Assembly: GCA_001801405.1 (NCBI GenBank)
Contig: MGXQ01000012.1
Span: 156-61,602, forward strand
Direction: 5' to 3'
Source of the DNA: Gammaproteobacteria bacterium RIFCSPHIGHO2_02_FULL_42_13
GTDB taxonomy: Bacteria > Pseudomonadota > Gammaproteobacteria > UBA12402
DNA: 61,447 bases
The notes below the pieces were generated by a model, which had not been told where the DNA came from, did no database searches, and worked only from the letters and a program-made list of their open reading frames with translations. Made by a program: the position numbers and the translations under genes. Every line of letters starts with the position of its first letter. Positions within the stretch are counted from its first letter, which is position 1. Positions 3,138 through 53,212 of the stretch are shown here, piece by piece.

Positions 3138-4655
3138 CTAATGTTTAGGTAATTTGAAAATCAATACTTTATCATTTCGACGCTTATAATCAAATGTTTT
3201 TATCGGTTTTCCAAGCACTTTTTCCAGCTGTTCCTGCCTATCGGTTGACAGGTCCGGCAGCACCAAAGCCACATAGTCATAGCCTCTCCACGGGCCCTCT
3301 GCGAGCAGATCCATGTTGAAATAATCCTTGTTTTCACCCTCCCAGCCGCCCGACTCACGCTTTGCAAAAAATGCCAATCGCCCCTCGTTGGTATATATCG
3401 TGGCCGATGACATCGTATTGTCATGCAGCCATACGCCCGCACTGTAAATATCTCGTTTTGAGGGGCCAAATTGATAAACACTTGCAATAGCCATACTTAA
3501 CATTAGAAAAACGGTCAGAACGAAAAATAGTTTTGCCCATAAAAATTTACGCTCCGTTGCACGCCAGTGTTGATATAGTTCATATAAACCAAATGGCACA
3601 TAACACAGTAATATTAATGCTAATGCCACCATATACCGACCGGACAAATAAACAAATTTCCAATAATACAGCAACGTCATCACGACGTTAATCAAGAGAT
3701 ACCAAAACAATACCCACTGTTTGGAAAAGGAGAACCTCATCGTCCGCATATATTGCATCGCATAAAACACACAAATCGTATAACCCAGCGACAAAGCATT
3801 TACCACATACACGCAATAACCCGCAATCCAACCAAATAAAAAAATCTCAAGAGCATTTCTTTCGCCCAAACTGGGCAAGACATATTGCTGCATCGCCAAA
3901 ACGCGTGTCGCAACAACCTGAGATAACTGCACACTATAAGCCAACAAACTCGGTATATCTGGAATGTTTCCGATATGCGGAAATCCTTTATGCAATGAAA
4001 TAAGTAAAATCCCAAAACCCACTCCTCCTGTTATTGTTAAGAGATTTAACTTTAAAATAGCCATTATCCGTGATTTAACAGAAAATATCGGCAAAAAAAC
4101 ACAACAAAATGGAGTCGCTAAAAGAAAAATCAATCCTTCCACTCGAAACAAGGTAGCCATCATCATGGACAACGACCATCCAATTGCATAACGCCATCTT
4201 AATTGTTGAATAAACCGCAATAAAAACCATACTGAAACCAAATAGAAGAGCCAATACCCATGCTCGCGCAAAATATCTCCACGATAACTATTAAACGTAT
4301 GAAAAATTAAAATCACTAACGCCGCCAGCCAAAAAAAACGATCAGAACCCTCCATTTCCTTAACAATAAAAATAAATATAAAAACTGTTAGCGTTGAAAA
4401 TACAACATTCGACAAATATACGGTGTGCAATAAAGATAAATGAAATAAGCGACTCCCCCACGCCAGCATAACAGAATAAAACGGCCAGTGATAAACATGA
4501 AATATAGACATAAACCCTGCGCATGGATATTGCTTGGCCAATTCTAAATAAAGCATGCCATCCGGATTGAAAAGAGGATAATGATAAATCGCTATTGCGG
4601 TTAAAATAACGCTTATTGCTGCAACAATACTGTAGTTTAAAATCTTATTCTGCAA
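3138..4655 (-). CDS. polytopic membrane GT-C-fold glycosyltransferase (ArnT/PMT-like)
   Basis: 505 aa with many hydrophobic helices. An acidic first-loop motif (FNPDGMLYLELAK) is followed by a soluble C-terminal domain of about 110 aa, which is the ArnT/PMT_2 architecture. The gene sits between ugd and galU. Confidence 0.55.
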   Translation of the reverse strand: MQNKILNYSIVAAISVILTAIAIYHYPLFNPDGMLYLELAKQYPCAGFMSIFHVYHWPFYSVMLAWGSRLFHLSLLHTVYLSNVVFSTLTVFIFIFIVKEMEGSDRFFWLAALVILIFHTFNSYRGDILREHGYWLFYLVSVWFLLRFIQQLRWRYAIGWSLSMMMATLFRVEGLIFLLATPFCCVFLPIFSVKSRIMAILKLNLLTITGGVGFGILLISLHKGFPHIGNIPDIPSLLAYSVQLSQVVATRVLAMQQYVLPSLGERNALEIFLFGWIAGYCVYVVNALSLGYTICVFYAMQYMRTMRFSFSKQWVLFWYLLINVVMTLLYYWKFVYLSGRYMVALALILLCYVPFGLYELYQHWRATERKFLWAKLFFVLTVFLMLSMAIASVYQFGPSKRDIYSAGVWLHDNTMSSATIYTNEGRLAFFAKRESGGWEGENKDYFNMDLLAEGPWRGYDYVALVLPDLSTDRQEQLEKVLGKPIKTFDYKRRNDKVLIFKLPKH

Positions 4656-6593: not shown

Positions 6594-6624
6594 ATTATCT
6601 TTCTCCCCTACGTGATTTTCACGT

Positions 6625-7860: not shown

Positions 7861-7861
7861 A

Positions 7862-9448
7862 TTAAAAAATTACTTCGGTCAACACCTCAATCGGAATTTT
7901 TCCAACATAACTTAGCACAATCGTTTGTTTAGTTTCTGCCATCCCAAACTCAGCATGATATAATGTCGACTGAATACTCATCTCACCATCAACCTGAAAA
8001 GTAATTTTAGCAACCTCACAGTGATCACGAGATAATATCAAACTATTTACCGTTGTTTTTCTTACGGCTATTTCGGGCGCCAAATGATAAAACAAATCCA
8101 TACGATGAGCGCCATTACCCAATATATTGTCCTTAATCACCAAACCACTATCCGTCAATCGCCATTCGCGCGTATGAACAGGGCGGCCTCGCAAACGCTT
8201 ATATCCATCATGGCTCGCACGCAACACTAAATTATCGCAATCTTCATGAAATTGCACGTTAAAAATTCGTGCGCGTCGTGCCACTCGGAAGCTCGCCCAA
8301 ACTTCTGAAGAATTTTGATCATCAATGGTTAACGTATTATGCGCAGCCGTCCCGCGTTCTGCAATACGTTGCGCATTATTTGCATAAGTACTAATCCCTG
8401 AATTAACAAAAATCAATTGGTTGTCAAATAATAACTCAAAGCTTAGCGAATCCGCATGCGCATGCCCCTGCAAATAATCCGCGCCGGTTGGCGCCACATC
8501 TGCAAGCACCAATAAATCACCTTTTTGCAACCGCCAATAACCATCCGCTTGTCTCAATATATTTAACTTATAACTGATCGACAAATTTTTCGCATACTGA
8601 CATAACGCATCAATATCGGGCGCAATCGCCATTGCACTATCATTAAAAAAAGCAAGACGGCCATTGGGATAGGTCAACGTTGCCAACCATGACAACATCT
8701 GAGGAACAAGCATCAACCATTTCGCTGGCATTTCTTGATCATAGACATAATAAACATTAATAAGATCTAATATATCTTGCAATATCAATGCATGATACAT
8801 CGGCGATAACTCAAAATGACCGCCTTCTGGTAAAATCTGGCGCTGTAATTCATGATCTAAAATTTTTATCCCTTGCCTTAACCACTTGTCCGCTTCTTTC
8901 CCTTGAAAAAATAACCCTGCAAAAACCAATGCTTTCGCATTGGAGAACACATGATTTCCCAGCAAATGATACTCAAGACGAGACATTAAATATCGCGCTT
9001 GCATAGCCAAACTTTCTAGCATGCGCCAGGATAATAATTCGCTTTCTAAATGGTATTTCATCCAATTAACCAAGCGCAATGACAGGGTATAAGGCTCCCA
9101 ACCGATTCCCTCCCCGGGCGGATTCTCATCCATCCAACGCAACATTAAATCCTTATCATACTCATCAAAATAATGCAGATTGTACAACCATAATTTATCA
9201 AGACGCCCATCATTCCAGATAGATGAGCAACTAACATCTTCGGTCTTATTTAAAAATCGATACTGAGTGGTTGAAACTTTTGCGGATCGTTTTTGAATAA
9301 ACGATCGGGGCGCATTAATAACATTTCGTAAAGGGGGTGGCGGCGTCTTGGCAATTTTCGGCCGATACAGTCGATAGCGCAATCGCCAATAAATCTGCGA
9401 CCACTTTAAATAACGTAATGTGTTAAAATACAAACAAAGCGTCATCAT
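7862..9448 (-). CDS. heparinase II/III-like (alginate-lyase superfamily) protein
   Basis: LLGNHVFSNAKAL and YLQGHAHADSLSFEL motifs are characteristic of the Hepar_II_III family. 528 aa. Confidence 0.75.
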   Translation of the reverse strand: MMTLCLYFNTLRYLKWSQIYWRLRYRLYRPKIAKTPPPPLRNVINAPRSFIQKRSAKVSTTQYRFLNKTEDVSCSSIWNDGRLDKLWLYNLHYFDEYDKDLMLRWMDENPPGEGIGWEPYTLSLRLVNWMKYHLESELLSWRMLESLAMQARYLMSRLEYHLLGNHVFSNAKALVFAGLFFQGKEADKWLRQGIKILDHELQRQILPEGGHFELSPMYHALILQDILDLINVYYVYDQEMPAKWLMLVPQMLSWLATLTYPNGRLAFFNDSAMAIAPDIDALCQYAKNLSISYKLNILRQADGYWRLQKGDLLVLADVAPTGADYLQGHAHADSLSFELLFDNQLIFVNSGISTYANNAQRIAERGTAAHNTLTIDDQNSSEVWASFRVARRARIFNVQFHEDCDNLVLRASHDGYKRLRGRPVHTREWRLTDSGLVIKDNILGNGAHRMDLFYHLAPEIAVRKTTVNSLILSRDHCEVAKITFQVDGEMSIQSTLYHAEFGMAETKQTIVLSYVGKIPIEVLTEVIF

Positions 9449-15551: not shown

Positions 15552-15564
15552 GATGCGTACGTAG

Positions 15565-15584
15565 GTTGGGCCGTGAGGCCCAAC
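15565..15584. repeat. 8-bp-stem hairpin, GTTGGGCC-GTGA-GGCCCAAC, between convergent genes (REP-like, possible bidirectional terminator)
   Basis: A perfect inverted repeat in the 67-bp gap between the plus-strand GT2-GtrA stop and the minus-strand asnB stop. The adjoining decamer GTAGGTTGGG (15561-15570) recurs in reverse complement at 21-30. Confidence 0.55.
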
Positions 15585-15618
15585 AAATTATATGCACCAA
15601 GCAGGCGTAGCCCGCATT

Positions 15619-27627: not shown

Positions 27628-27707
27628 GAAAAGCTCAAGCATATCTATCCCCTTCATAATCGGCCGGGTAAATATTATCCGACTTCTTGTTGCTCCAGCG
27701 CCCTTGA

Positions 27708-27727
27708 CTCCGCTGCAAGCAGCGGAG
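27708..27727. repeat. 9-bp-stem palindrome, CTCCGCTGC-AA-GCAGCGGAG
   Basis: A perfect inverted repeat just downstream of the GT2 stop. The core CCGCTGCAAGCAG also occurs, in reverse complement, in the hairpin at 40043-40063. Confidence 0.6.
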
Positions 27728-27737
27728 ATTTCTTACT

Positions 27738-28661
27738 TTAAAAACCCGCTCGTTTATCCCACAAATAACAGAATAATTTTTGCCCTAGAAAACTTAAGCA
27801 ATATAGAAGAAAAAAAGACTTACTCTTAAGCAAATAGGGTCTCAATAGCAAACGACATTGTTTTGCCTGACCTACGCGCATGCAAGATAACGCCTCTAAC
27901 CATGTAATATGTCGACGATATGATGTTATTTCTTCACTAAATTGATCTTTAAAATTCTCATTTAATGCCATCAATTTATCTAAAACCAGACTACTTTCCT
28001 TTGCAAACAATTCATGTCGCCTAAATGTATCACTGTTTTTATGCACACGCCATCTCGAGAGCGGCTCATTCACACAGTCAATAGGATACTCATAAGCAAT
28101 TCTCAAAAACAAATCAGCATCTTCCATTACATGCAAGCGTGGATCAAACCACTCTGGCAATTTATCCAAAATTGACCGCAAAATAATAACTGTTTCAATA
28201 TCCAAAAAATAATTGGCAAACAATTCTTTAAACACATTTCCACAAAGCGTTTTTTTATCGTGATATAAGCGTCGAATATTTCCCCGCTCATTAAAAAAAT
28301 ACGAGTCCGAATAAACCATCCCTAACGATGGATTTTTCTCTAACAATGCAACTTGTTTTTCTAATTTCGTTGGCAACCATAAATCATCACAATCTAAAAA
28401 AGCAATATATTTTCCATGACATTGCTCCAATGCTAAATTCCTAGCCGCCCCGAGCGAAACATGTTGATTTCCTAAAAAATACAGCAGCTTGTCATCATAA
28501 GATTTTGAAATCTCTGCACTACGATCTGTTGATGCATTATCCCAAAAGATAATTTCCCAATCCAAAAAAGTTTGCGCATAAACTGAATCGATCGCTTCTT
28601 TTAAATAGCGATCGCTGTTACAGCAATTCATCACAACACTGACGAGTGGTTTAGCATTCAT
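27738..28661 (-). CDS. glycosyltransferase family 2
   Basis: VSVVMNCCNSDRYL and FLDCDDLW motifs. 307 aa. Confidence 0.8.
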   Translation of the reverse strand: MNAKPLVSVVMNCCNSDRYLKEAIDSVYAQTFLDWEIIFWDNASTDRSAEISKSYDDKLLYFLGNQHVSLGAARNLALEQCHGKYIAFLDCDDLWLPTKLEKQVALLEKNPSLGMVYSDSYFFNERGNIRRLYHDKKTLCGNVFKELFANYFLDIETVIILRSILDKLPEWFDPRLHVMEDADLFLRIAYEYPIDCVNEPLSRWRVHKNSDTFRRHELFAKESSLVLDKLMALNENFKDQFSEEITSYRRHITWLEALSCMRVGQAKQCRLLLRPYLLKSKSFFLLYCLSFLGQKLFCYLWDKRAGF

Positions 28662-28806: not shown

Positions 28807-29949
28807 TCAATTTTCACTCATAACACATTCTTCACACAACAAAATCTGCACTAAACCAACAATATAATCAATATCCCGCCTGCTCAGCTCAGGATGTAAT
28901 GGCAAGGTCAATAATTCGACAGATAATTGCTCTGCAACGGGCAACTGAGAGCTCCCATGGCCGTATTTAGACAACAAGTGAGATGCTTTATAATGAACCC
29001 CCACTTCGACTGCATGCTGCTTTAAATATATCCCTAACCGATCACGCTGACCGTTCAAAACCCTCATCGGCATAATATGTGGCACAATATCATCTAAATC
29101 CATTTGCAATAACTGAACCCCCTGAATATTTTTCAATCGCTCATAATAATAGCTTATCAGCTGTCTTCTTGCCGATTTAAATTCTTTTTCAAAACGGTCT
29201 AATTGCACGACACCAATCGCCGCCATTAAGTTGCTCATATGATATCGAAATCCCTGCTCCATCACATCAAAATCACAACCGCATTGCGCTGAAGAAAGTT
29301 TTTCAGTTTCTCTATGCACGCCCAACAATCGTGCATTCGATACCTTATGAATAACTGCACTGTCCGCGCTTACAATGGCGCCACCCTCCCCGCAGGTAAT
29401 ATTTTTAATCCCATCAAAACTAAAACAAACCACATCACCAAAGCTACCAATTTTTTTGCCTCGATAGACTGAGCCAAACGCATGCGCCGCATCTTCGACC
29501 ACTCTCAATTTATGTTGCTTTGCAAAATCATAAACTGACTGCAAATCGCCACAATAACTCGCATAATGAACAAACATGAGTGCTTTTGTTTTTGAACTTA
29601 ACCGTTTCTCAGCATCTTTCAAATCCAATAATCCATTCTCTAAATGTACATCACAAGCAACCGGTGTTGCGCCTGTCGCAGAAATCGCCTGAAAAGAAGC
29701 GACATAAGTCATCGCAGGCACCAATACTTCATCCCCCGCCCCCACGCCTAACGCTTGTAACGCCAAATGTAATGCCGCGGTACCTGAATTAACACAAACC
29801 ACTTTCCTATCTGAACAACCCAGATAGTCTTGCAATTTTTGCTCGAGTAATTGAACCTCCGCCCCCATCCCCAAATAACCATGAGCCATCACCTTTGAAA
29901 GAGCGATAACTTCCCGCTCTCCCACAACAGATTTTGATAAACGAATCAT
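28807..29949 (-). CDS. DegT/DnrJ/EryC1/StrS-family sugar aminotransferase
   Basis: VEDAAHAFG and the catalytic-lysine motif FSFDGIKNITCGEGGAIV. 380 aa. Confidence 0.85.
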   Translation of the reverse strand: MIRLSKSVVGEREVIALSKVMAHGYLGMGAEVQLLEQKLQDYLGCSDRKVVCVNSGTAALHLALQALGVGAGDEVLVPAMTYVASFQAISATGATPVACDVHLENGLLDLKDAEKRLSSKTKALMFVHYASYCGDLQSVYDFAKQHKLRVVEDAAHAFGSVYRGKKIGSFGDVVCFSFDGIKNITCGEGGAIVSADSAVIHKVSNARLLGVHRETEKLSSAQCGCDFDVMEQGFRYHMSNLMAAIGVVQLDRFEKEFKSARRQLISYYYERLKNIQGVQLLQMDLDDIVPHIMPMRVLNGQRDRLGIYLKQHAVEVGVHYKASHLLSKYGHGSSQLPVAEQLSVELLTLPLHPELSRRDIDYIVGLVQILLCEECVMSEN

Positions 29950-39878: not shown

Positions 39879-39908
39879 TTCATATCAACTCGATACAATA
39901 AATATAAT
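39879..39908 (+). promoter_or_regulatory. candidate sigma70-type promoter (TTCATA-18 nt-TATAAT)
   Basis: A perfect -10 hexamer at 39903-39908 and a 4/6 -35 hexamer at 39879-39884. It would fire into the palindrome cluster and the omp gene. Pattern match only. Confidence 0.3.
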
Positions 39909-39921
39909 GTGAAGATTTCCC

Positions 39922-40015
39922 CGCGGCTTGCCGCGTGGGACTTTTCGCTTGGGGATTCTCAAGGGGAGCGGGCGAACGCTCCCCTTGAGTCGCCGTTCGC
40001 GCGGCTTTGCCGCGC
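39922..40015. repeat. GC-rich cluster of three perfect palindromes (REP/MITE-like)
   Basis: CGCGGC-TT-GCCGCG at 39922-39935. CTCAAGGGGAGCG-GGCGAA-CGCTCCCCTTGAG at 39958-39989, with a 13-bp stem. GCGCGGC-TTT-GCCGCGC at 39999-40015. The cluster is markedly more GC-rich than its flanks. The ORFs here on both strands look like artefacts. Confidence 0.7.
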
Positions 40016-40042
40016 AGGCGATCAATAAAAGAAATAAAAATA

Positions 40043-41187: not shown

Positions 41188-42281
41188 AATCGACCTCGTT
41201 CTTTTGCTAAATTCACATATTTTTCAATTTGAGCATTCGTCATCTCTATCATGTTCTCTTTAGAAGACCGATAATAATCACTATACCATTCTCCCGTAAA
41301 CACTATCGCCTCTGAAAAACTTAATGTGGCAGTCCAATCAAGTCGCGCCAATGCTTTATCACAACATAATTTCAACAATCCCGCCTCACAGCCTTGCACT
41401 TCGCAATTAAATAATGTTGAATGCGCAGACTCGCCCCATACGTTACTCAACCCTTTCACTAACTCGCCTACGGTTAAATATGTTTCTGACAACGGACCAA
41501 AGTTAAATGCCTCGCCGATTACATTTTTATTTTTTGCATACAACCGCGCACCCAAATCCAAATAACCACTCAACGGATCTAGCACATGTTGCCAAGGTCG
41601 AATGGCATTAGGTCGTCGCACCTCGACGGTTTCTCCTTTAGCCCACGCACGCATACAATCGGGCACAATGCGATCCTTAGACCAATCTCCTCCACCAATA
41701 ACATTACCCGCTCGCACTGATACCAGCGCCTGATTTGAATCTTGATAGAACGAACGCCCATAAGCACTAATTGCAATTTCAGCACACGCCTTCGATGCAC
41801 TATAAGGATCTTTTCCTCCCAACGCATCTTTTTCACGATAACCGTATTCCCATTCTACATTTTCATAACATTTATCGCTGGTAATGAACACTCCGGCCAC
41901 AACGGAATCAATATGACGTATCGCATCTAACATATTAACTGTCCCCCCTAAATTAACATCAAATGTTAACTTGGGTTCTGCCAACGATGTACGCAAGATT
42001 GGCTGCGCCGCTAAATGAAAAACAATTTCCGGCTGAAAATCTGCCATCACCTGGGATAATCGATCAATATCTCTAATATCGTCCCTATAATCTTGTCGTA
42101 TTTTTTCCTTTAAATGAAGTAATTCATACAAAGACGGTTGAGAGGGAATATCGACAGAATAACCGGCTACATCCGCCCCTAGATTTAACAACCATTGCGT
42201 TAACCAGCTCCCTTTAAACCCGGTGTGACCAGTAACAAAAACGCGACGATTTTTATATACATTATTAAACATATAAAACAA
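41175..42281 (-). CDS. rfbG: CDP-glucose 4,6-dehydratase
   Basis: RVFVTGHTGFKGSWLTQWL and YSASKACAE. The 368-aa length is typical of RfbG/DdhB. Confidence 0.88.
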   Translation of the reverse strand: MFYMFNNVYKNRRVFVTGHTGFKGSWLTQWLLNLGADVAGYSVDIPSQPSLYELLHLKEKIRQDYRDDIRDIDRLSQVMADFQPEIVFHLAAQPILRTSLAEPKLTFDVNLGGTVNMLDAIRHIDSVVAGVFITSDKCYENVEWEYGYREKDALGGKDPYSASKACAEIAISAYGRSFYQDSNQALVSVRAGNVIGGGDWSKDRIVPDCMRAWAKGETVEVRRPNAIRPWQHVLDPLSGYLDLGARLYAKNKNVIGEAFNFGPLSETYLTVGELVKGLSNVWGESAHSTLFNCEVQGCEAGLLKLCCDKALARLDWTATLSFSEAIVFTGEWYSDYYRSSKENMIEMTNAQIEKYVNLAKERGRFWVQ

Positions 42282-42343: not shown

Positions 42344-43390
42344 CTAAAAGGTTGGAACATCTATTTGCGCACGTTTAAAATCTTCCATCTTACCCATATC
42401 CAACCAATATTCATGTATGGGAAAAGTCACTATCAGCTTGCCCTCTTGAATCAACCGATTAAACAATGTCGGCATATCAAAGTTATTTTTTCCATGAATA
42501 CTATTAACGATCTCTGGCGACAATACATAAATACCTGCGTTAATAAAAAATTGATACGACGGCTTTTCAATAATTTCCGTAACCGCATGTCCCTCTATCT
42601 GAACGGTTCCATAAGGCACCTGCATACCATATTCCCGTACACACATCGTCACCGCGGCTTTTGAATCTAAATGAAACTGTAATAATTGTCGAAAATTAAC
42701 TTTTGTTAACACATCTGCATTCATTACAATTAAAGGCTGAGATATTTCTGGCAATAACCCCAAGGATCCGCCCGTTCCTAGTGGCTCCTCTTCTTCAAGA
42801 TACTTAATATCAACGCCAAACTGCTCACCCGTGCCAAAATAACTTTTCACCATATTCAATTTATAATGCAGAGACATAAAAAATCTCTGAAACCCATTCA
42901 ATTTAAACTGTTGAATAATATTTTCTAAAACAGGACGTCCACCAATTTTCAATAACGGCTTAGGACAATCATCCGTCAATGGTTTTAATCGCGTCCCAAA
43001 ACCACCCGCCATTAAAAACACCCAATTCGTATTTTTAGCCTCGCGACGCAAATAGGGTGAGATTTCTACGTCAATCATGCATTGATTTTCATCCACAATC
43101 GGCACACAACGTATCGACTGTTCTTCCATCAGAGTAACCAACTCGGCGACATCTATATTGCGCATTGCCATCATCGGCTGACCATTCATCACGGAACAAA
43201 CAGGCTGATCCAGCGTGACATGTCGCAATAAACCACGACGCACATCACCATCCGTCACTACGCCCAATAATTTTAAATCATGATCGACAACAAACACGGT
43301 GCCCAGAGCACCCTGATTAATCACGCGAATGGCGTTTTCTAATGTACAATCTGGATTAACTATAAGTTTTTTCCATTTTATTGCTTCCAT
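42344..43390 (-). CDS. CBS-domain-containing sugar-1-phosphate nucleotidyltransferase (PtmE-like)
   Basis: N-terminal CBS pair (VVDHDLKLLGVVTDGDVRR), then VFLMAGGFGTRLKPLTDDCPKPLLKIGGRPVLE. The start is set at MEAIKWKK (ATG 43390). Confidence 0.75.
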   Translation of the reverse strand: MEAIKWKKLIVNPDCTLENAIRVINQGALGTVFVVDHDLKLLGVVTDGDVRRGLLRHVTLDQPVCSVMNGQPMMAMRNIDVAELVTLMEEQSIRCVPIVDENQCMIDVEISPYLRREAKNTNWVFLMAGGFGTRLKPLTDDCPKPLLKIGGRPVLENIIQQFKLNGFQRFFMSLHYKLNMVKSYFGTGEQFGVDIKYLEEEEPLGTGGSLGLLPEISQPLIVMNADVLTKVNFRQLLQFHLDSKAAVTMCVREYGMQVPYGTVQIEGHAVTEIIEKPSYQFFINAGIYVLSPEIVNSIHGKNNFDMPTLFNRLIQEGKLIVTFPIHEYWLDMGKMEDFKRAQIDVPTF

Positions 43391-43401
43391 CAAACATCCT
43401 A

Positions 43402-44040
43402 CTATATAAGTTCTTTCGCGGGCACACCTACCACTCGCACAAAAGAAGGCACATCGCAAATAACAACAGAACCAGCACCCACTAAACTGCTTTCACCAAT
43501 ATAAATATTTTCAATCACAACCGCACCAGTACCAATATGTACATTAGCACCAATATGCACACCCCCAGACAGTACCACGCCAGGCGCAATATGAACAGAA
43601 GAGCCAATCACACAATCATGATCAACAGATGCGCGGGTATTTATGATGGCATTTTTATGCACAATCACCCCCGCCTGAACAACCGATCCAGCCATAATTT
43701 GCACGCCCTCATGCATGACAACGGACGAACTCACTATCGCTGATGGATGACAAAGCACTGGAAATTGATATCCCATACGAGAAAACTTCTCAAAAATCTT
43801 ACCATGAAGAGAATCAGAACCCACAGCGCCAATGCCATTCGCCAAACAAACTTCTTTGGGGGAGAACTCAGACAACATCTCATCTGAACCAATAATATTT
43901 ATACCCAAAAGACTGGATCCGATTTTATTTTTATCGATATCAACAATGCCAAGCACTTCAAAACAATCCAATCGTTGAATCAAATCAACCACAACCTTCG
44001 CATGTCCGCCGCCGCCCAGAATAATTATTTTTTTTTTCAT
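43402..44040 (-). CDS. NeuD/PglD-family hexapeptide sugar N-acetyltransferase
   Basis: IIILGGGGHAKVV N-terminal domain and a left-handed beta-helix repeat, VHIAPGVVLSGGVHIGANVHIGTGAVV. The start ATG at 44040 forms an ATGA overlap with the upstream stop. The ATG is followed by an A10 tract (44028-44037). Confidence 0.8.
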   Translation of the reverse strand: MKKKIIILGGGGHAKVVVDLIQRLDCFEVLGIVDIDKNKIGSSLLGINIIGSDEMLSEFSPKEVCLANGIGAVGSDSLHGKIFEKFSRMGYQFPVLCHPSAIVSSSVVMHEGVQIMAGSVVQAGVIVHKNAIINTRASVDHDCVIGSSVHIAPGVVLSGGVHIGANVHIGTGAVVIENIYIGESSLVGAGSVVICDVPSFVRVVGVPAKELI

Positions 44041-45113
44041 AAAACAATTTCTTCCTCTGGCTGATATGCTCTGTCCGCACGGCTGCCTAATAAATCCCAA
44101 AAATGAAAAGGAGATACGCCAACGCCTGGGCGTTTGATGGTTAGATTTTCGCTACTAAAAACATCACCCTTTCTAATCAGTTTCAACGCAACAATGCTTT
44201 TACGCACAATGGTAACATTTTCTTTTTCAGACGCTGTAATTTGTTTATTTGCATCACCTAACATCTTTTCAACTTCTCGAATAGCCGTTACCATACTAGA
44301 AAACTCACCGGGCTCTGAAGACACTTTATGATCTGGCCCCGACATTGTTTTGTCTAAAGTAAAATGCTTTTCAATCACTTGAGCACCCCGCGCAACTGCG
44401 GCAATAGCCGCACTAATGCCAACAGTATGATCTGAATATCCAACCATCTAACCAAATTCTTTATGCATCACATCCATGACGCGCAAATTTACATCTTCAA
44501 GCGGCGTTGGGTAGGCAGAATTACAATGCAACAACATCACCTTTTGCTTTAACAGCGCTTTTACCTGCGCAGTTTGATAGGCTTTTTTAAAAGCTCGCAT
44601 GCTCGGCTGCACATGCAAATTTAAATATCCAAAGGCTAACACACTTAAAGCATTTTCTATCTCCAACAATGCTGACATTCCTGTCGATACAATCACATCA
44701 CACCGTCTCTGAGCAATAGCCAACAATAATGGCGCGTTCGTTATCTCACCCGAACCTAATTTGACTTTTTTAACGTCAAAATTATCGACCAAAAAATCCA
44801 GACTTTCAACATCAAAAATCGAAAACAAAATTTCGATCGATTTCTCTCGACAATAATCCATGATCGCTGAATAATCCGACTCAGCCAATTCCAATCGTTT
44901 TAACATAGCAAATTGAGAATCATCTTTCGTCTGTTGATAGGCCGCCTTTGGCGCATGACGCGTTACTAGTCGCGACGCCTTAAACGCCTGAAATTTCACA
45001 ACATCCGCACCCGAAGCAATCGCCGCATCAATTAATTTTTTAGCTAAATCTAAAGAGCCATTGTGGTTCACCCCAATTTCTGCAATTATTTTTGTTTTCG
45101 CTATTTCAGACAT
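44037..45113 (-). pseudogene. neuB: NeuB-family nonulosonic acid synthase (legionaminic/neuraminic type) interrupted by one in-frame TAG
   Basis: The two track ORFs, 44448-45113 and 44037-44447, are contiguous and in the same frame. The minus strand reads ...AAA GAA TTT GGT TAG ATG GTT GGA TAT TCA GAT CAT ACT, which is KEFG*MVGYSDHT. The N-terminal part has IIAEIGVNHNGSLDLAKKLIDAAIASGADVVKFQ. The C-terminal part has VGYSDHTVGI and a SAF-like tail. The stop codon is at 44448-44450. Confidence 0.8.
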
Positions 45114-46254
45114 CGTAAAAACCTTTTTTTAAATTCTTTAGATTAACTCGCTTTAAAATATTTTTTATTTCTTTACTGGCATTGCCCTGCCCTAACGCAT
45201 TTTTATCCATCTGCTGACATTTCCGTTGAGCCAATTTTGACAACGCTTTCTTAATCGCCATTCGTATCGAATGTTCGTCGTCGGAACAGTTAATAACATT
45301 ATCAAACATCAGTCGCCCTATTTGTCGCGAACCAATATTGACCACCGGCAATTTAGACGATGGCGCCTCGATCACGCCACTCGATGAATTTCCGATCATC
45401 AACCCCGCATGCTTCATTAAGGAAAAATATTTTTGAGCTCCAAGCGCCGCATAAATTTTCGCAGATTTATGTTGTTGTGTGAATTTTTTTAATGCTTTGA
45501 AAATTTTTGTATGCTCGGCATCGGCATTGGGTATCGTAAAAATATATTGCAAATTAAATTTTTCCAATGCTTTTAATAAACTCTTAATGTGACGATCCGC
45601 CATGCCCTTTTCCAACGTCACCGGATGATAGGTTACTAAAGCAGTATTTTTATCAATGGGAAACCCCATCTGCGCCTCAAGCGCTTTTTTGCTCAATAGT
45701 TTTGTACGCTTAACATGATCCAAGCCCACCGCCCCCACGCGGAATACTCGCTTAGGATTTTCACCTAATTGAACAACGCGCTTCGCATATTGTTTATGCG
45801 CCACAAAATGCCAATGCGCCATTTTAGTAATCGCATGACGAACGGCGTCATCATAGGCGCCTTCTGTCACTTCCCCGCCATGAATATGCGCAATCGGAAT
45901 CCGCATAAACAGTGCCGCGCTGGCGGCCGCAAACGTTTCAAATCGATCGCCCAATAACACAATAACATCGGGCTTTAATTTCTTATAGGCATTTGTACAA
46001 CCCGCCACACCTACACTAACAGCCTTAGTAACCGCCTCCTCTTTATCAGAGGATAAATTCATTTTCACCTTGGCATCAATTTTAAATCCATCTTGTACAA
46101 TCTGTTTATAAGTGAATCCAAATTTTTCTTCAAGATGCATCCCCATGACAACTATTTGCAATTTCAGTGACGGGTCTTGCTGTATCTCTCGCATTAACCA
46201 ATACAACAACCCATAGTCGGAACGTGCACATGTCATCACTAATATTTTTCGCAC
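45106..46254 (-). CDS. neuC: hydrolysing NDP-HexNAc 2-epimerase (NeuC/LegG type)
   Basis: KILVMTCARSDYGLLYWL and GNSSSGVIEAPS. 382 aa. Confidence 0.85.
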   Translation of the reverse strand: MRKILVMTCARSDYGLLYWLMREIQQDPSLKLQIVVMGMHLEEKFGFTYKQIVQDGFKIDAKVKMNLSSDKEEAVTKAVSVGVAGCTNAYKKLKPDVIVLLGDRFETFAAASAALFMRIPIAHIHGGEVTEGAYDDAVRHAITKMAHWHFVAHKQYAKRVVQLGENPKRVFRVGAVGLDHVKRTKLLSKKALEAQMGFPIDKNTALVTYHPVTLEKGMADRHIKSLLKALEKFNLQYIFTIPNADAEHTKIFKALKKFTQQHKSAKIYAALGAQKYFSLMKHAGLMIGNSSSGVIEAPSSKLPVVNIGSRQIGRLMFDNVINCSDDEHSIRMAIKKALSKLAQRKCQQMDKNALGQGNASKEIKNILKRVNLKNLKKGFYDV

Positions 46255-47426
46255 ACCGGCTCCTCACTTAAACAAACACTGCTCGGAATATTAATTAATC
46301 GAGCGGCAACACTCTTCGCGCCAGATAAATCCATGTGCGGACAACGTTGATACATCGGCAATGTATTCATCAATTCCCACACCGGTCTTAGAAAAATATT
46401 ATTCTTACAGGCTAACTCTAAAACGTCATTGCGATGATGTTGAGCGGCATCGCTCAACAATATAGCATTTAACCAACAATTGCTCTTAGCCTCTTTCGGC
46501 TCTTCCACAAACCGACATCCGTTATAATTTTCAAATATTCTTTTATACCTTTCCATCAACTGACGTTTTTTCTGCAGAAACTCAGGTATCTTTTCTAACT
46601 GCGCGCATCCCAGCGCCGCATTAATATTCGGCAAGCGATAATTATAACCGATACAATCATAATCATATTTCCAATGATGCGGCAATTTAGCCGTTGTCGT
46701 GATATGCTTCGCTTTTTTAGCCACGTCTTCATCATCGGTGATGATTGCCCCGCCGCCGCCCGTCGTAATAATTTTATTTCCATTAAAACTTAAGGCGCCA
46801 GCAAAACCATGATGACCCACGTGTTGACCTTTATAAAAAGAACCCAATGCTTCAGCCGCATCTTCAATCAATGTCAAATGATAGCGGTCACATAAAGCAA
46901 TCGCCGTATCTAAATCCACCGGATGACCAAACGTATGCATTACACATAACGCACGAATCGGTCGCTTTGTGATTTTATTAAAACAGACATTGTTTTTAAT
47001 TTCTGTGATCTCAGATAAATAACGTTCCAATTTTTCAAAGTCGATGTCTAAATGAGATTCTTCACTGTCAATAAAATGAGAAATACCACTGCAATATGCA
47101 ATCGCGTTACATGTGCCAATAAATGTCAACGCCGGCACTAACACTTCATCATTCGGCTTAACACCTGCCAACAGAAAAATAATATGCAATGCCGCAGTAC
47201 CATTCACCGCAACCACACAATATTTTGCGCCGGTATAGGCCGCTAGATCCGATTCAAATCGATCAACAAATTTTCCACCCGAAGAGACCCATCCTGTATC
47301 CAGACATTCTTTAACATAGCGCCATTCATTTCCAACGAACAGAGGCTCATGCAACGCAATACTCGCCTGATCCCTTGGCAAGCAATTTTTTAACGTTGTA
47401 ATAAACAAATGAGGATCAAACAACAT
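46239..47426 (-). CDS. DegT-family aminotransferase (LegC/PseC type)
   Basis: IEDAAEALG and ALSFNGNKIITTGGGGAI. The start is set at MLFDPH (ATG 47426), just after the upstream stop at 47416. Confidence 0.8.
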   Translation of the reverse strand: MLFDPHLFITTLKNCLPRDQASIALHEPLFVGNEWRYVKECLDTGWVSSGGKFVDRFESDLAAYTGAKYCVVAVNGTAALHIIFLLAGVKPNDEVLVPALTFIGTCNAIAYCSGISHFIDSEESHLDIDFEKLERYLSEITEIKNNVCFNKITKRPIRALCVMHTFGHPVDLDTAIALCDRYHLTLIEDAAEALGSFYKGQHVGHHGFAGALSFNGNKIITTGGGGAIITDDEDVAKKAKHITTTAKLPHHWKYDYDCIGYNYRLPNINAALGCAQLEKIPEFLQKKRQLMERYKRIFENYNGCRFVEEPKEAKSNCWLNAILLSDAAQHHRNDVLELACKNNIFLRPVWELMNTLPMYQRCPHMDLSGAKSVAARLINIPSSVCLSEEPVCEKY

Positions 47427-48426
47427 ATTGCCCACATTTATAATGTTTAAGATTTTCTGAACGCGAGAACCATTCAATGGTTCTCAGCAACCCTTTCTGC
47501 AAGCCCTCTATACCAGCATACGCCGGCGTCCAATCTAATAATGCTTTTGCTTTAGCGTTATCTGCCCATAATCGCTCAACCTCACTCTTTTTCGGCCGCA
47601 CCCTCTGCTCATCTGCAATCAACGTGATTTTTTTATTCATACAAGCAGCAATCAGCTTAACAAGATCGGCGATAGAAATTTCATAATTACTGCCAATATT
47701 AACGACTTCACCCATCACGCGATCAGATTCCGCCATCGCAATAAATGCATTTGCCGTATCGCCCACATAATTAAAATCTCGCGTCGGCGACAAAGAACCT
47801 AATTTAATCTCACTCGCTCCTGACGCAATTTGCGTAATAATCGTCGGAATCACTGCGCGCGTCGATTGACGCGGCCCATACGTGTTAAAGGGGCGTATCA
47901 CGCTCACCGGTGTACCAAACGCGTTATAAAAAGACAGCGCCAACTGATCCGCTCCGATTTTCGTCGCCGAATACGGCGACTGCCCTTGCAAAGGATGATC
48001 TTCCGTTATAGGAACAAACTGCGCCGTTCCATAAACCTCACTGGTTGACGTATGAATGATTTTTTCAACCCCAGCGTCTCTTGCCGCCTGCAAAACATTT
48101 AACGTTCCTTTAATATTGGTATCCACATAAGAATCCGGCGAATAATACGAATACGGAATACCAATCAATGCGGCCAAATGCATGACAATTTGACAATCTT
48201 TAACGGCATGGCGCACACCATTTGGATCACGCACATCGCCGACAAACACATCAAGGTTATTTTTAGTGGCAGCCGGCAACGCATCTAACCAGCCCCAACT
48301 ATTAAAAGAATTATATAAAACAAATGCCCGCACATCATAATTTGACGCGATGAGACGTTCCACCAAATGCGAGCCAATAAAGCCATCGGCACCAGTTACT
48401 AATATTTTTTTATTATTCAGTTTCAT
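47416..48426 (-). CDS. NAD-dependent NDP-HexNAc 4,6-dehydratase (LegB type)
   Basis: KILVTGADGFIGSHLVERL, YNSFNSWGWLD and YSATKIGAD. The start is set at MKLNNKK (ATG 48426). Confidence 0.78.
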   Translation of the reverse strand: MKLNNKKILVTGADGFIGSHLVERLIASNYDVRAFVLYNSFNSWGWLDALPAATKNNLDVFVGDVRDPNGVRHAVKDCQIVMHLAALIGIPYSYYSPDSYVDTNIKGTLNVLQAARDAGVEKIIHTSTSEVYGTAQFVPITEDHPLQGQSPYSATKIGADQLALSFYNAFGTPVSVIRPFNTYGPRQSTRAVIPTIITQIASGASEIKLGSLSPTRDFNYVGDTANAFIAMAESDRVMGEVVNIGSNYEISIADLVKLIAACMNKKITLIADEQRVRPKKSEVERLWADNAKAKALLDWTPAYAGIEGLQKGLLRTIEWFSRSENLKHYKCGQYVV

Positions 48427-49714
48427 AACCCTTCTCTTTTTCATATGGCAAATCCACCGTGCCATATAAATATTTTTCTGCAAAATGTCGGCCGATGCGA
48501 CCGTTAAAATATGTTTTAGTGAGTGCTCGGTAAGCGTTTTCCAAGTGCTTAGTATGATAAGTCTCATTGCTAATCCAGCGTAACACAGCTTGAATAAGCT
48601 TTTTCTTGAATATTACTTGCGCATCTGTTTCTTTTTGCATATTCTCTAAGTTTTCACACATTTCTTTTATCGCTTCTTGAATCTCCTTTGAAGAATTATC
48701 ATGTAAGGTATAGCGTTGATTAAATTGATGAATTTGATGAGAATCGAATGCTCCATTAATGCCAATCTCCTGCTTAAAAATTTCATTATAAGTCAAAAAT
48801 CGTTTTTGTTCATTAGAAAAAACATGCTTATAAATATAGATATCTGACGTTTTATAGGGCTGAACAAAAAGATAATCCGTCACATTTACCGCCAAAACAG
48901 GAACACCCAATAAAAAAGCCGCATCCAATATTCCTGAATTTGTTCCCAAATAAAATTTACAATTTTTTATTAAAAATAAATCCATCAACTCGGATTTATA
49001 GACTGTATTTGGATAATCTATATAATACTGATGGTATCCCAAATCCACTGAATCTCCCAGGCGAATGACCTGAAACCCTGCGGCTTTTAGACATTTCAAA
49101 CCTTCAATATAATTTTCTATATTTGAATTACGATAAGAAGAATACGAAGAATCATTATAGTAATGCTGTGTCCGTATATGCAAACAAACATAGGGCTTGT
49201 TTCGATGAATCCCCAGATGTTCCATTGTTTTTTCACAATATAATTGATCCTCATCACAAAAATATAATTTCTGTTTTTTTTCAAGAAAATATTTCCAATC
49301 AATATTGCTCACGCTAGCGGAATCAAAATATTTTAATACGTTGACATTAAACAAATCCTTGCAGCCACACCCTATAAATTGCAAATTGAGTTCTCTTAAA
49401 ATCTTTAATTTACATAAAATCGCACGGCCAGCAAACCCTATAAAAAACATGACCCCATAATAACAACCAATGACCTCATCAATCCAGAAGGGAGGCTTGC
49501 CCAAAAAAACTCCTGCCAATCTATAGACTGCACCTCTTTGTACATAGCGAAATTTTCTTTTAAAAATAGAGCTAAACGGTATGCGTTTGCGAACGAATAA
49601 AATCTGTTTATTTTGTCTCTCCGCCTTAAACAAGGCGTATAGAATTTTTTCACAGAGATTGCCAATAACAATATCATAATCTGCAACAAAAATAAATTTT
49701 TTTTTATGCACCAT
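48413..49714 (-). CDS. putative glycosyltransferase, tandem paralog A (uncharacterised family)
   Basis: Full-length similarity to the neighbouring gene 49759-51015, for example VCLHIRTQHY..RNSNIENYIE..VIRLGDSV..YYIDYPNT..SELMDLFLIKNC..GTNSGILDAAFLLGVPVLAVNV. The start is set at MVHKKKF (ATG 49714, AAGGA upstream) by alignment with the paralog. An A9 tract lies at 49697-49705. Confidence 0.6.
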   Translation of the reverse strand: MVHKKKFIFVADYDIVIGNLCEKILYALFKAERQNKQILFVRKRIPFSSIFKRKFRYVQRGAVYRLAGVFLGKPPFWIDEVIGCYYGVMFFIGFAGRAILCKLKILRELNLQFIGCGCKDLFNVNVLKYFDSASVSNIDWKYFLEKKQKLYFCDEDQLYCEKTMEHLGIHRNKPYVCLHIRTQHYYNDSSYSSYRNSNIENYIEGLKCLKAAGFQVIRLGDSVDLGYHQYYIDYPNTVYKSELMDLFLIKNCKFYLGTNSGILDAAFLLGVPVLAVNVTDYLFVQPYKTSDIYIYKHVFSNEQKRFLTYNEIFKQEIGINGAFDSHQIHQFNQRYTLHDNSSKEIQEAIKEMCENLENMQKETDAQVIFKKKLIQAVLRWISNETYHTKHLENAYRALTKTYFNGRIGRHFAEKYLYGTVDLPYEKEKGYETE

Positions 49715-51715: not shown

Positions 51716-53212
51716 TTAACTCATCATCTCTTTTAGAATTTCTTCTTGTTGCAAGGGTAAATTGCCTAGTCGCCCCACCTGACAAGCCGCCACCAACGCG
51801 CCTACATAAGCGCTTTGCCAAATATCAGCGCCAGCAGCCAACCCTAAAGACGTTCCAACTAATAAGGCATCCCCACCACCCGCAACATCTTTGGGCGCTT
51901 TATTAAATACCGGCAATCGATCTGTTAATAAATCCGCGGCTGAATTTTGCATCTCATTAACAATCATGCCTTCTGCACCGAGAGTAATCACGATATTTTT
52001 CGGATGAATTTTCTGTCGCAATTTGTCCGCCAACACAATTAATCCTGATTCGAAATCTTTTACCGCCAAGCGAATTTCCCTTTCTGTCGGCGTAACTAAT
52101 GACATGTTCTCAAATCGAGAAATATCCCCCATTTGTGAAGACGATTGACTATCCGCGGTCACAATAATATTGTGCCCCAATGCAAGCGCGGATACAGTCG
52201 CAATTAATTTTTTTGGCAAACATCCATAACTAAAATCAGAAAAAATTAATAAATCTATCTTATCTAAATGATGCCGAATATCTTCAATTATTTTTTCCTG
52301 CAACTCATTATCGATGTGATGCTGCTTTAATCGGTTGACTCTTAATAACGTCTTACCATTTGCTCGAAAACGCTGTTTATGCGTTGTTTCCCTTGTTTTA
52401 TCTGTATATAAATGTGCATCAATATGATATTCATGCATTTTTCCTTCGACAAAATCAGATAACTTATCATCACCCAATATCGAATAAAAGCTCACCTGCG
52501 CTCCCAATCCAGCCGCATGTGCCGCGACAATGCCAGCACCACCCAAAAATTTATCCGATGAGATCGGAGTCACCACAATGGTAGGATCTTCTTGACTCAT
52601 CCCGAGCGGATCACACATCACATATTCATCCACAATCGTATCGCCAATCACTAATACCTTCAGAGAAGAAAATTTCTTAACAAGTGCCGTTAAATCATTA
52701 AAATTAAAATTATGTCGACTCAGATAATCCAGTGGCTTCTCAATGCTGGATAATTCAAATCGACTAAATTCTTTTTTCAATAAATCCAATGAGGAAAAAC
52801 GAATATCGCCCGAACCAAAAACCAGTTTCCCGCCATAAGACGCCAATACCGCTTCTTCAGGATTATGAACCACTTCAAATTCACTGCCTTTCACAACGAT
52901 ATGCGGTTTTAATTTCACAATAAAATCCGCGACACTGGATTGCAAGACAAAAACATAATCGACATAATGCGTGGCACTCAGCGCTTCTAATCGCAAATGC
53001 GATGGCAACAGAGTCTTATCAGCTATATCAGGCTCCAAGGCAACCACCAAGAAGTCCCCCAACCCTTTAGCAAATTTTAACAATCGAATATGTCCAGGAT
53101 GCAGAATATTAAACCGACCCGACACTAAAACAATTTTACTATGGCGACCTTTAGATCGAATACTATCAATAACACCCTCATCATCTGTTCCGCACAATAG
53201 TGTTGCATCCAT
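51716..53212 (-). CDS. bifunctional protein: N-terminal cytidylyltransferase-like (HIGH-motif) domain plus C-terminal PfkB sugar kinase domain
   Basis: The N-terminal domain has VLVSGRFNILHPGHIRLLKFAK (GxFxxxHxGH nucleotidyltransferase motif). The C-terminal domain has GGAGIVAAHAAGLGA and DVAGGGDALLVGTSLGLAAG (PfkB anion-hole motif). The domain order is the reverse of HldE/RfaE. Confidence 0.75.
   Translation of the reverse strand: MDATLLCGTDDEGVIDSIRSKGRHSKIVLVSGRFNILHPGHIRLLKFAKGLGDFLVVALEPDIADKTLLPSHLRLEALSATHYVDYVFVLQSSVADFIVKLKPHIVVKGSEFEVVHNPEEAVLASYGGKLVFGSGDIRFSSLDLLKKEFSRFELSSIEKPLDYLSRHNFNFNDLTALVKKFSSLKVLVIGDTIVDEYVMCDPLGMSQEDPTIVVTPISSDKFLGGAGIVAAHAAGLGAQVSFYSILGDDKLSDFVEGKMHEYHIDAHLYTDKTRETTHKQRFRANGKTLLRVNRLKQHHIDNELQEKIIEDIRHHLDKIDLLIFSDFSYGCLPKKLIATVSALALGHNIIVTADSQSSSQMGDISRFENMSLVTPTEREIRLAVKDFESGLIVLADKLRQKIHPKNIVITLGAEGMIVNEMQNSAADLLTDRLPVFNKAPKDVAGGGDALLVGTSLGLAAGADIWQSAYVGALVAACQVGRLGNLPLQQEEILKEMMS

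What the first reader, a model, noticed from the sequence alone, without database searches (positions are those of the whole stretch)
44037..45113. Single in-frame TAG splits the nonulosonic acid synthase gene, followed directly by ATG
The NeuB-family synthase is otherwise intact: about 358 codons, a TIM-barrel N-terminal signature, VGYSDHT and a SAF-like tail. It is interrupted at 44448-44450 by TAG in the same reading frame. The next codon is ATG (KEFG-TAG-MVGYSDHT). All other genes of the pathway look intact, and the downstream acetyltransferase remains ATGA-coupled. There are four possible explanations:
- a recent inactivating nonsense mutation, meaning loss or phase-type variation of the NulO decoration
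- a sequencing error
- stop-codon readthrough
- termination-reinitiation giving a two-piece enzyme

A one-base change from several sense codons (TAT, CAG, AAG, GAG, TTG, TCG, TGG) would create this stop.
Basis: seen in the sequence. Interest (0 to 1): 0.62.

Follow-up and report, generated by a model that had tools for sequence, protein, structure and literature searches.

The report
Assembly-private stop codon in sugar synthase
The stop codon splitting this bacterial sialic-acid-like sugar synthase gene is a one-base oddity of this single assembly, because every other public assembly of the same groundwater bacterium has an intact gene with a conserved leucine there, so it is an ordinary artefact or rare null allele and not a recoding signal.

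Summary
On the minus strand, a NeuB/LegI-type nonulosonic acid synthase (45113..44037) carries an in-frame TAG at 44448-44450, followed by ATG. There is no indel.

The stop depends on one base, + strand 44449 = T. That base is private to this assembly:
- Logan contigs of all 11 public metagenome runs that cover the site read A (TTG, Leu).
- So do 16 distinct contig records (NCBI, ENA, JGI, Logan) that encode an otherwise identical intact 358-aa protein.

Leu222 is present in 27 of 28 homologues. Met223 is lineage-specific and also present in the intact allele, so the TAG-ATG adjacency is a coincidence.

Across all 61.4 kb the window differs from the same clone in another run at only three isolated transversions (one synonymous, one Pro>Gln, this stop). 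None of the three appears in any indexed run. Other assemblies of the clone carry their own private transversions, some of them stops in legB and legC.

TAG is a normal stop in this window. I found no Shine-Dalgarno sequence, repeat tract, tRNA or Rfam element.

Verdict: most likely a consensus miscall. The main rival is a rare real null allele. Readthrough and reinitiation are not supported. Interest is low.

The parts
44037..45113 (-). NeuB/LegI-type nonulosonic (legionaminic-type) acid synthase gene: 358 codon positions plus a TGA stop, interrupted at codon 222
   Evidence: Translation. Pfam NeuB plus SAF across both pieces. The intact allele P0002 scores 439 bits against TIGR03569 NeuB_NnaB, whose cut-off is 399.65.
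44448..44450 (-). In-frame TAG at codon 222. The middle base (+ strand 44449 = T) is private to this assembly; all others read A, giving TTG (Leu).
   Evidence: T>A at 44449 at full contig depth in runs X1-X9, X16 and X14. TTG in every fetched locus that spans the site.
44445..44447 (-). ATG for Met223. It is an ordinary internal codon that is also present in the intact allele, not a conserved restart codon.
   Evidence: P0002 reads ...KEFGLMVGYSDHT. Column 223 is Met in only 1 of 28 homologues; the others have P, R, A and so on.
44451..45113 (-). Upstream 221-codon piece: the first three quarters of the TIM barrel. It lacks both metal-binding histidines and the SAF domain.
   Evidence: Pfam NeuB profile positions 1-172 of 241. 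The invariant residues H229 and H250 lie downstream of the stop.
44040..44447 (-). Downstream 136-codon piece: the last barrel strands with the SDHT and EKHF motifs, plus the SAF domain.
   Evidence: Pfam NeuB profile positions 175-241 and SAF. No gene with exactly this product is on record in the public collection.
43402..44040 (-). NeuD/PglD-type acetyltransferase (LegH-like). Its ATG overlaps the synthase TGA, giving ATGA at 44037-44040.
   Evidence: TIGR03570 scores 214 bits against a cut-off of 160.8.
45106..46254 (-). NeuC-type hydrolysing 2-epimerase (LegG-like), overlapping the synthase start
   Evidence: TIGR03568 scores 477 bits against a cut-off of 235.9.
46239..47477 (-). LegC-family aminotransferase
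   Evidence: TIGR04181 scores 513.5 bits against a cut-off of 420.
47416..48567 (-). LegB-type NAD-dependent 4,6-dehydratase
   Evidence: TIGR04180 scores 524.9 bits against a cut-off of 475.
42344..43459 (-). CBS-domain sugar-1-phosphate nucleotidyltransferase (PtmE-like)
   Evidence: Pfam CBS plus NTP_transferase.
8469..8469 (-). Second assembly-private base. The window has T and all others have G: CAG (Gln) against CCG (Pro) at codon 327 of a heparinase II/III-like protein.
   Evidence: No indexed run holds the window's words here.
4518..4518 (-). Third assembly-private base. The window has T and others have G: a synonymous change, GCA against GCC.
   Evidence: No indexed run holds the window's words here.

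Best explanation
The TAG is a single-base consensus miscall in this one metagenome-assembled genome: + strand 44449 reads T where the organism has A. In the organism the gene is an intact 358-codon LegI/NeuB-type synthase with Leu222 (TTG). It sits in a complete legionaminic-acid-type operon and is translated as one chain. Nothing is recoded, and the ATG after the stop is simply the next sense codon, Met223.

Shown: the base is private to this assembly, intact copies are everywhere else, and Leu is conserved at this position.

Inferred: the private base arose from low-coverage or damaged reads and not from a real allele.
For: 1. Eleven runs, from at least six studies of groundwater, soil and freshwater metagenomes, have contigs that cover 44449. 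All read A at full contig depth.
2. Sixteen distinct contig records carry TTG and encode P0002, which is identical to the window's protein except for L222. They come from NCBI (GCA_001801785.1), ENA (original and re-assemblies), JGI and Logan.
3. No indexed run holds the 31-mers that carry the TAG allele. The 136-aa product is not on record. The 221-aa product appears only as a contig-end truncation.
4. Over the whole 61,447 bases, run X3's contigs differ from the window at only three places: 4518, 8469 and 44449.
   - All three are isolated transversions with T in the window.
   - Their effects are one synonymous change, one Pro>Gln and one nonsense change.
   - None of the three is found in any indexed run.
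5. Genuine strain variation in the same runs looks different. It comes in clustered, three-periodic, transition-rich tracts.
6. Other assemblies of the same clone carry their own private isolated transversions with damaging effects. This shows a background of assembly-specific noise in this data set.
   - L008: legB E320>TAG and neuC H125N.
   - L007: neuC H147Q.
   - L002: two stops in legC.
7. L222 is Leu in 27 of 28 homologues.
Against: - One independent megahit contig (L011, ERZ4903055, 719 bp) ends exactly at 44450, the base next to the variable site. A de Bruijn graph does this when reads in that sample disagree at 44449, so a T-bearing molecule may really exist in at least one sample.
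- Raw reads were not available. All the runs are served as contigs, which drop minority variants.
- Three consensus errors in 61 kb would be a high error rate for an Illumina assembly at normal depth.
- I could not identify the window's own source run.
Confidence: 0.55

Rival explanations
1. A real but rare or sample-specific nonsense allele. A subpopulation of an otherwise near-clonal groundwater bacterium recently acquired TTG>TAG in legI and lost legionaminic-acid decoration of its surface glycan. This assembly happened to capture that variant as its consensus.
For: - Contig L011 from an independent assembly stops exactly one base before the variable position, as expected if two alleles occur in that sample's reads.
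- Private SNVs between samples of one population are common.
- Surface-glycan genes are frequent targets of loss-of-function under phage or grazer pressure (general knowledge).
- Other assemblies show private stops in legB and legC of the same operon. If real, these would mean recurrent loss of the pathway.
Against: - The allele is absent from the contigs of all 11 runs that cover the site and from all 16 contig records.
- No indexed run holds its 31-mers.
- Its two companion private differences are also unseen elsewhere.
- All the private changes are isolated transversions with an unselected effect spectrum, unlike the natural variation in the same runs.
- Every private stop is confined to a single assembly.
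Confidence: 0.38
2. Programmed stop-codon readthrough or suppression: TAG decoded as an amino acid, an altered genetic code, or pyrrolysine-type recoding.
For: The gene is otherwise intact and stays in frame across the stop.
Against: - The stop is not conserved, even within the same clone; all others have TTG.
- TAG ends 10 of the 53 other long frames in the window, including four neighbouring operon genes.
- There is no tRNA gene in the window and no Rfam element in 43000-46500.
Confidence: 0.02
3. Termination-reinitiation at TAG-ATG, giving a functional two-piece synthase (221 aa plus 136 aa) or naturally separate half-genes.
For: ATG follows the stop directly. Adjacent stop and start codons can allow some ribosome re-initiation (general knowledge).
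Against: - Met223 exists in the intact allele and is not conserved: 1 of 28 homologues.
- The 22 nt before the ATG (GATGCATAAAGAATTTGGTTAG) contain no Shine-Dalgarno-like motif.
- The cut falls inside the TIM barrel, seven codons before the first of two invariant histidines. H229 and H250 align with His215 and His236 of the N. meningitidis enzyme. So the active site would be divided between the two chains.
- Of 8000 scored relatives, the 120 best listed are single chains of 347-374 aa.
- Near-identical short products in the databases are contig-end or scaffold-gap fragments.
Confidence: 0.02

Closest known systems
N,N'-diacetyllegionaminic acid synthase LegI / N-acetylneuraminate synthase NeuB (TIGR03569; Pfam PF03102 plus the SAF domain PF08666). 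Solved relatives include B. subtilis SpsE (1VLI), N. meningitidis NeuB (1XUU, 2WQP) and a pseudaminic acid synthase (8H2C).
   Same: - Same domain order, with full-length colinearity.
- The intact allele scores above the curated equivalog cut-off.
- The invariant SDH and EKH histidines are present.
- The gene sits among LegB, LegC, NeuC-like, NeuD-like and CBS-nucleotidyltransferase genes, as in the GDP-linked legionaminic acid pathway of Campylobacter jejuni (pathway knowledge from memory; family hits).
   Different: - In this assembly alone, codon 222 is TAG instead of Leu.
- The best named relatives are only about 53-57% identical.
- Substrate specificity (Leg versus Neu) is inferred from the neighbouring genes and has not been tested.
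Consensus base errors and low-frequency variants in short-read metagenome-assembled genomes
   Same: It is a single isolated substitution unique to one assembly. It is accompanied by other private isolated transversions, both in this assembly and in sibling assemblies of the same clone. It has a damaging effect on a conserved residue.
   Different: The contig break of an independent assembly exactly at the site (L011) hints at a real second allele in at least one sample. A pure one-off miscall would not predict that.
Loss-of-function and phase-variable nonulosonic acid genes in surface-glycan loci (for example homopolymer-switched genes in Campylobacter; from memory)
   Same: The affected gene belongs to the same pathway class. 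A neighbouring gene begins with an A10 tract (44028-44037).
   Different: The interruption here is a point substitution with no repeat tract at the site, so it cannot switch reversibly.

Membership tests
NeuB/LegI nonulosonic acid synthase (TIGR03569 / PF03102 + SAF) | Full-length match above the curated equivalog cut-off | tested here: met
   The intact allele P0002 scores 439.4 bits against a cut-off of 399.65. PseI scores 243 bits, below its cut-off of 340.
NeuB/LegI nonulosonic acid synthase (TIGR03569 / PF03102 + SAF) | TIM-barrel NeuB domain followed by a C-terminal SAF (antifreeze-like) domain in one chain | tested here: inconclusive
   Both domains are present and colinear. In the window sequence, however, the chain is cut at codon 222. 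All other assemblies encode one chain.
NeuB/LegI nonulosonic acid synthase (TIGR03569 / PF03102 + SAF) | Two metal-binding histidines (His215 and His236 in N. meningitidis NeuB; the ligand role is from memory) | tested here: met
   H229 and H250 are invariant in 28 homologues. They align with residues 215 and 236 of chain 2wqp_A.
Legionaminic-acid (GDP-linked) pathway operon | LegB dehydratase, LegC aminotransferase, acetyltransferase, hydrolysing 2-epimerase, synthase and CMP-transferase encoded together | tested here: met
   TIGR04180, TIGR04181, TIGR03570, TIGR03568 and TIGR03569 all score above their cut-offs. A cytidylyltransferase at 37951-38748 matches PseF-type and CTP_transf_3 models below the equivalog cut-off.
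Programmed stop-codon readthrough / recoding | The stop codon is conserved at the same position in relatives | tested here: not met
   TTG is found in all 16 sister contig records and all 11 runs. The position is Leu in 27 of 28 homologues.
Programmed stop-codon readthrough / recoding | TAG is depleted as a terminator, or a dedicated tRNA or RNA element is present | tested here: not met
   TAG ends 10 of the 53 other long frames. There is no tRNA gene in the window and no Rfam match.
Termination-reinitiation / naturally split enzyme | A conserved restart codon with a ribosome-binding signal, and split genes recurring in the family | tested here: not met
   Met223 occurs in 1 of 28 homologues and no Shine-Dalgarno motif precedes it. 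The 120 best-scoring relatives listed are single chains of 347-374 aa.
Phase-variable contingency gene | A simple-sequence repeat or invertible element at the site of interruption | tested here: not met
   The sequence around the stop is ...GAATTTGGTTAGATGGTTGGA..., with no homopolymer or short tandem repeat. The change is a substitution, not an indel.

The most novel reading that the evidence does not exclude
The TAG is a real minority allele and is one of several independent knock-outs of the legionaminic acid operon segregating in one aquifer population: legI L222*, legB E320* in ERZ4903185, and stops in legC in ERZ4903072. That would indicate recurrent, possibly phage- or grazer-driven, loss of the nonulosonic acid surface decoration within a near-clonal uncultured bacterium.
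Probability: 0.12. Interest if true: 0.3.

Novelty: not a real feature. Interest (0 to 1): 0.06.

Why it matters
It matters mainly as a caution. Taken at face value, this genome would be scored as lacking a functional nonulosonic acid synthase, or flagged as a recoding candidate. In fact the population's gene is intact.

It also shows that assemblies of this low-coverage groundwater data set each carry a few private, damaging single-base differences. Isolated in-frame stops in these genomes should therefore be checked against sibling assemblies before they are interpreted.

If the allele proved real, it would be an ordinary example of standing loss-of-function variation in a surface-glycan pathway.

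Tried and rejected
- **Altered genetic code or TAG reassignment: rejected.** TAG terminates 10 of the 53 other long frames, including legC, the acetyltransferase, the CBS-nucleotidyltransferase and the CDP-glucose dehydratase gene.
- **Suppressor tRNA or RNA recoding element: none found.** The window has no tRNA gene and 43000-46500 has no Rfam match.
- **Reinitiation signal: none found.** There is no Shine-Dalgarno motif before ATG223, and Met223 is not conserved.
- **Natural split of the family: rejected.** The 120 best-scoring relatives listed are single chains of 347-374 aa. Short near-identical products are a contig-end cut (L011) or the product of a gene called in two pieces (196 aa plus 146 aa) on a 2.3-kb scaffold (L020) that still reads TTG at the site. 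I did not establish what separates the two pieces.
- **Looking for the TAG allele elsewhere: nothing found.**
  - A word search centred on the site found no run holding the allele.
  - An exact look-up of the 136-aa product found nothing.
  - An exact look-up of the window's Gln327 heparinase-like protein found nothing.
  - Word searches centred on the other two private bases listed no run.
- **Identifying the window's own record: not achieved.** I tried look-ups of neighbouring proteins. Only the sibling record MGYO01000003.1 and other assemblies were returned.
- **Whole-genome checks: not possible.** I therefore could not look for a second synthase copy, check genome-wide TAG use or search for a suppressor tRNA.
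- **Literature: no hit.** A search for the sibling assembly accession returned nothing.

Full report
**Observation**

The gene lies on the minus strand. Translating 45113..44037 gives MSEIAKTK...HKEFG, then TAG (+ strand 'cta' at 44448-44450), then MVGYSDHT...EEEIVL and TGA. That is 221 codons, the stop, and 136 codons.

Pfam's NeuB model matches positions 1-172 on the first piece and 175-241 on the second. A SAF domain follows, all in one frame and with no insertion or deletion. The ATGA overlap with the downstream acetyltransferase (44037-44040) is present.

**What the gene and its surroundings are**

The neighbours score above the curated NCBIfam cut-offs for:
- LegB dehydratase (TIGR04180)
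- LegC aminotransferase (TIGR04181)
- NeuC-type hydrolysing 2-epimerase (TIGR03568)
- NeuD/PglD-type acetyltransferase (TIGR03570)

The uninterrupted allele of the synthase scores above the NeuB_NnaB cut-off (439 against 400 bits) and well below the PseI cut-off. A CBS-domain nucleotidyltransferase follows.

**The decisive test: what do other copies of this DNA read?**

The stretch occurs in public groundwater, soil and freshwater metagenome runs. I laid Logan contigs of runs X1-X9, X16 and X14 on the gene. Every run with a contig over the site reads A at + strand 44449, at full contig depth. On the coding strand that is TTG, leucine. X2 and X4 look like one data set filed twice, but the remaining runs come from several samples and studies.

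A protein search returned P0002. It has 358 residues and is identical to the window's product except for Leu at position 222. It is held by NCBI, JGI, ENA and Logan, and 21 contigs that carry it were read.

Every fetched locus that spans the site reads TTG. These are 16 distinct contig records, including NCBI GCA_001801785.1 contig MGYO01000003.1, the original ANAN16 scaffolds of four biosamples, several megahit re-assemblies and two JGI assemblies.

In the other direction:
- No indexed run holds the 31-letter words that carry the TAG allele.
- The 136-aa downstream product is on record nowhere.
- The 221-aa upstream product is on record only because a 719-base contig ends there.

**Conservation**

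In an alignment of P0002 with 27 relatives of 52-57% identity, position 222 is Leu in 27 and Val in 1. Position 223 is Met only in this lineage; elsewhere it is Pro, Arg, Ala and others. Met223 is also present in the intact allele. The eye-catching TAG-ATG adjacency is thus a coincidence of the next sense codon.

The stop lies seven codons before the invariant SDH histidine. H229 and H250 align with residues 215 and 236 of the N. meningitidis enzyme. From memory, those two residues are its metal ligands. So the cut falls inside the barrel and would divide the active site between two chains.

**How private is the difference, and what else is private?**

I laid the whole window on the runs in four stretches. 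Run X3's contigs differ from the window at exactly three positions in 61,447:

| Position | Window | All others | Effect |
|---|---|---|---|
| 4518 | T | G | synonymous, GCA/GCC |
| 8469 | T | G | Gln for Pro in a heparinase II/III-like protein |
| 44449 | T | A | stop for Leu |

All other assemblies fetched over these sites agree with the runs. No indexed run holds the window's words at 8469 or 4518. The window is therefore the dominant clone plus three isolated transversions, all to T on the + strand, with an effect spectrum that looks unselected.

Real strain variation in the same runs looks different. It comes in clustered tracts, spaced in threes and rich in transitions: X1 at 47742-48016, 11014-11044 and 12680-12708, and X5 at 29671-29812 and 2983-3021.

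Other assemblies of the same clone have private isolated transversions of their own:
- ERZ4903185 has a C>A that turns legB Glu320 into TAG, and its legB is called as two genes. It also has H125N in the epimerase.
- JGI 3300025311 has H147Q in the epimerase.
- ERZ4903072 has five changes within 22 bases that put two stops in legC.

Four of the six isolated private changes are of the G>T/C>A kind. From memory, that is the usual signature of oxidative damage in library preparation. The run contigs have depths of only about 3-10. Private damaging singletons are therefore a background property of assemblies of this population, and the TAG is one of them.

**What speaks for a real allele**

Contig L011, from an independent megahit assembly (ERZ4903055), matches the window perfectly from 45168 down to 44450 and then ends. 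That is one base before the variable position. A de Bruijn graph contig ends this way when reads disagree at the next base, or when neither variant reaches the minimum count.

I estimate the chance that one of the few dozen contig ends inside this gene falls on that exact base at a few percent. So a T-bearing molecule may truly exist in at least one sample. I could not see raw reads, because every run is served as contigs and contigs drop minority variants. I therefore cannot separate a miscall from a low-frequency real allele with certainty.

**Explanations rejected**

- **Reassigned or suppressed TAG.** This does not fit. TAG ends 10 of the 53 other long frames in the window, four of them in this operon. 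There is no tRNA gene in the window and no Rfam element near the gene. The stop is absent from the same clone elsewhere.
- **Termination-reinitiation giving a two-piece enzyme.** There is no Shine-Dalgarno-like motif in the 22 bases before ATG223 and no conserved restart codon. There is no precedent among the 120 best-scoring relatives, which are single chains of 347-374 aa.
- **Phase variation.** This needs a repeat tract or an invertible element, and the change here is a substitution in non-repetitive sequence.

**Verdict**

Confidence that the interruption is not a programmed or fixed feature of the organism, whose gene is intact, is about 0.93. Within that, I put about 0.55 on a consensus error of this assembly and about 0.38 on a rare, sample-specific nonsense allele. 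Either way the finding is ordinary and I score it low.

As a result I could not test for a second synthase copy, genome-wide stop-codon use or suppressor tRNAs.

Noticed in passing
window 47610; 45882; 45814; 46644-46665 (seen in loci L008, L007, L002): Other public assemblies of the same clone carry their own private changes in the Leg operon. ERZ4903185 has legB E320>TAG and epimerase H125N. JGI 3300025311 has epimerase H147Q. ERZ4903072 has five changes within 22 bases that give two stops in legC. Each is confined to one assembly.
   Followed up: partly
window 4518 and 8469: These are the only other differences between the window and run X3's contigs over all 61.4 kb. Both are T in the window and G everywhere else (one synonymous, one Pro327>Gln in a heparinase II/III-like protein). 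Neither is found in any indexed run.
   Followed up: yes
window 44704: A shared polymorphism in the same synthase gene: C>A gives Arg137>Leu. It is seen in run X5 and in the fetched contigs of ERZ27254845 and SRR3989338 (protein P0122), so it looks like a real allele.
   Followed up: partly
window 47742-48016; 29671-29812; 2983-3021; 11014-11044; 12680-12708: Runs X1 and X5 carry short tracts of clustered, mostly third-position differences within otherwise identical sequence. The pattern suggests recombination with a related strain, or mosaic contigs. One ENA contig (L035) is a 98.1% identical strain over 5735-9004.
   Followed up: no
window 15556-15591; 27695-27743; 39904-40040: Logan contigs break into 31-96-base pieces at word depths of 20-120 here, against about 9 elsewhere. 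These short GC-rich palindromic intergenic elements are therefore multi-copy in the genome or the community, which fits the MITE-like notes of earlier readers.
   Followed up: no
window 44028-44037: The acetyltransferase gene begins ATG followed by ten A's, directly after the synthase stop. This is a potential slippage tract. All the fetched assemblies in which the gene was called (17 contigs) give the same 212-aa product, so no length variation was seen.
   Followed up: partly
L001 (MGYO01000003.1), locus 3297-3360 and 12974-13011: The sibling NCBI genome has N-filled scaffold gaps where the window has continuous sequence (window about 51754-51925 and 42103-42140). It also has 18 mismatches in 9.6 kb. 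The window is therefore a different, gap-free assembly of the same species.
   Followed up: partly
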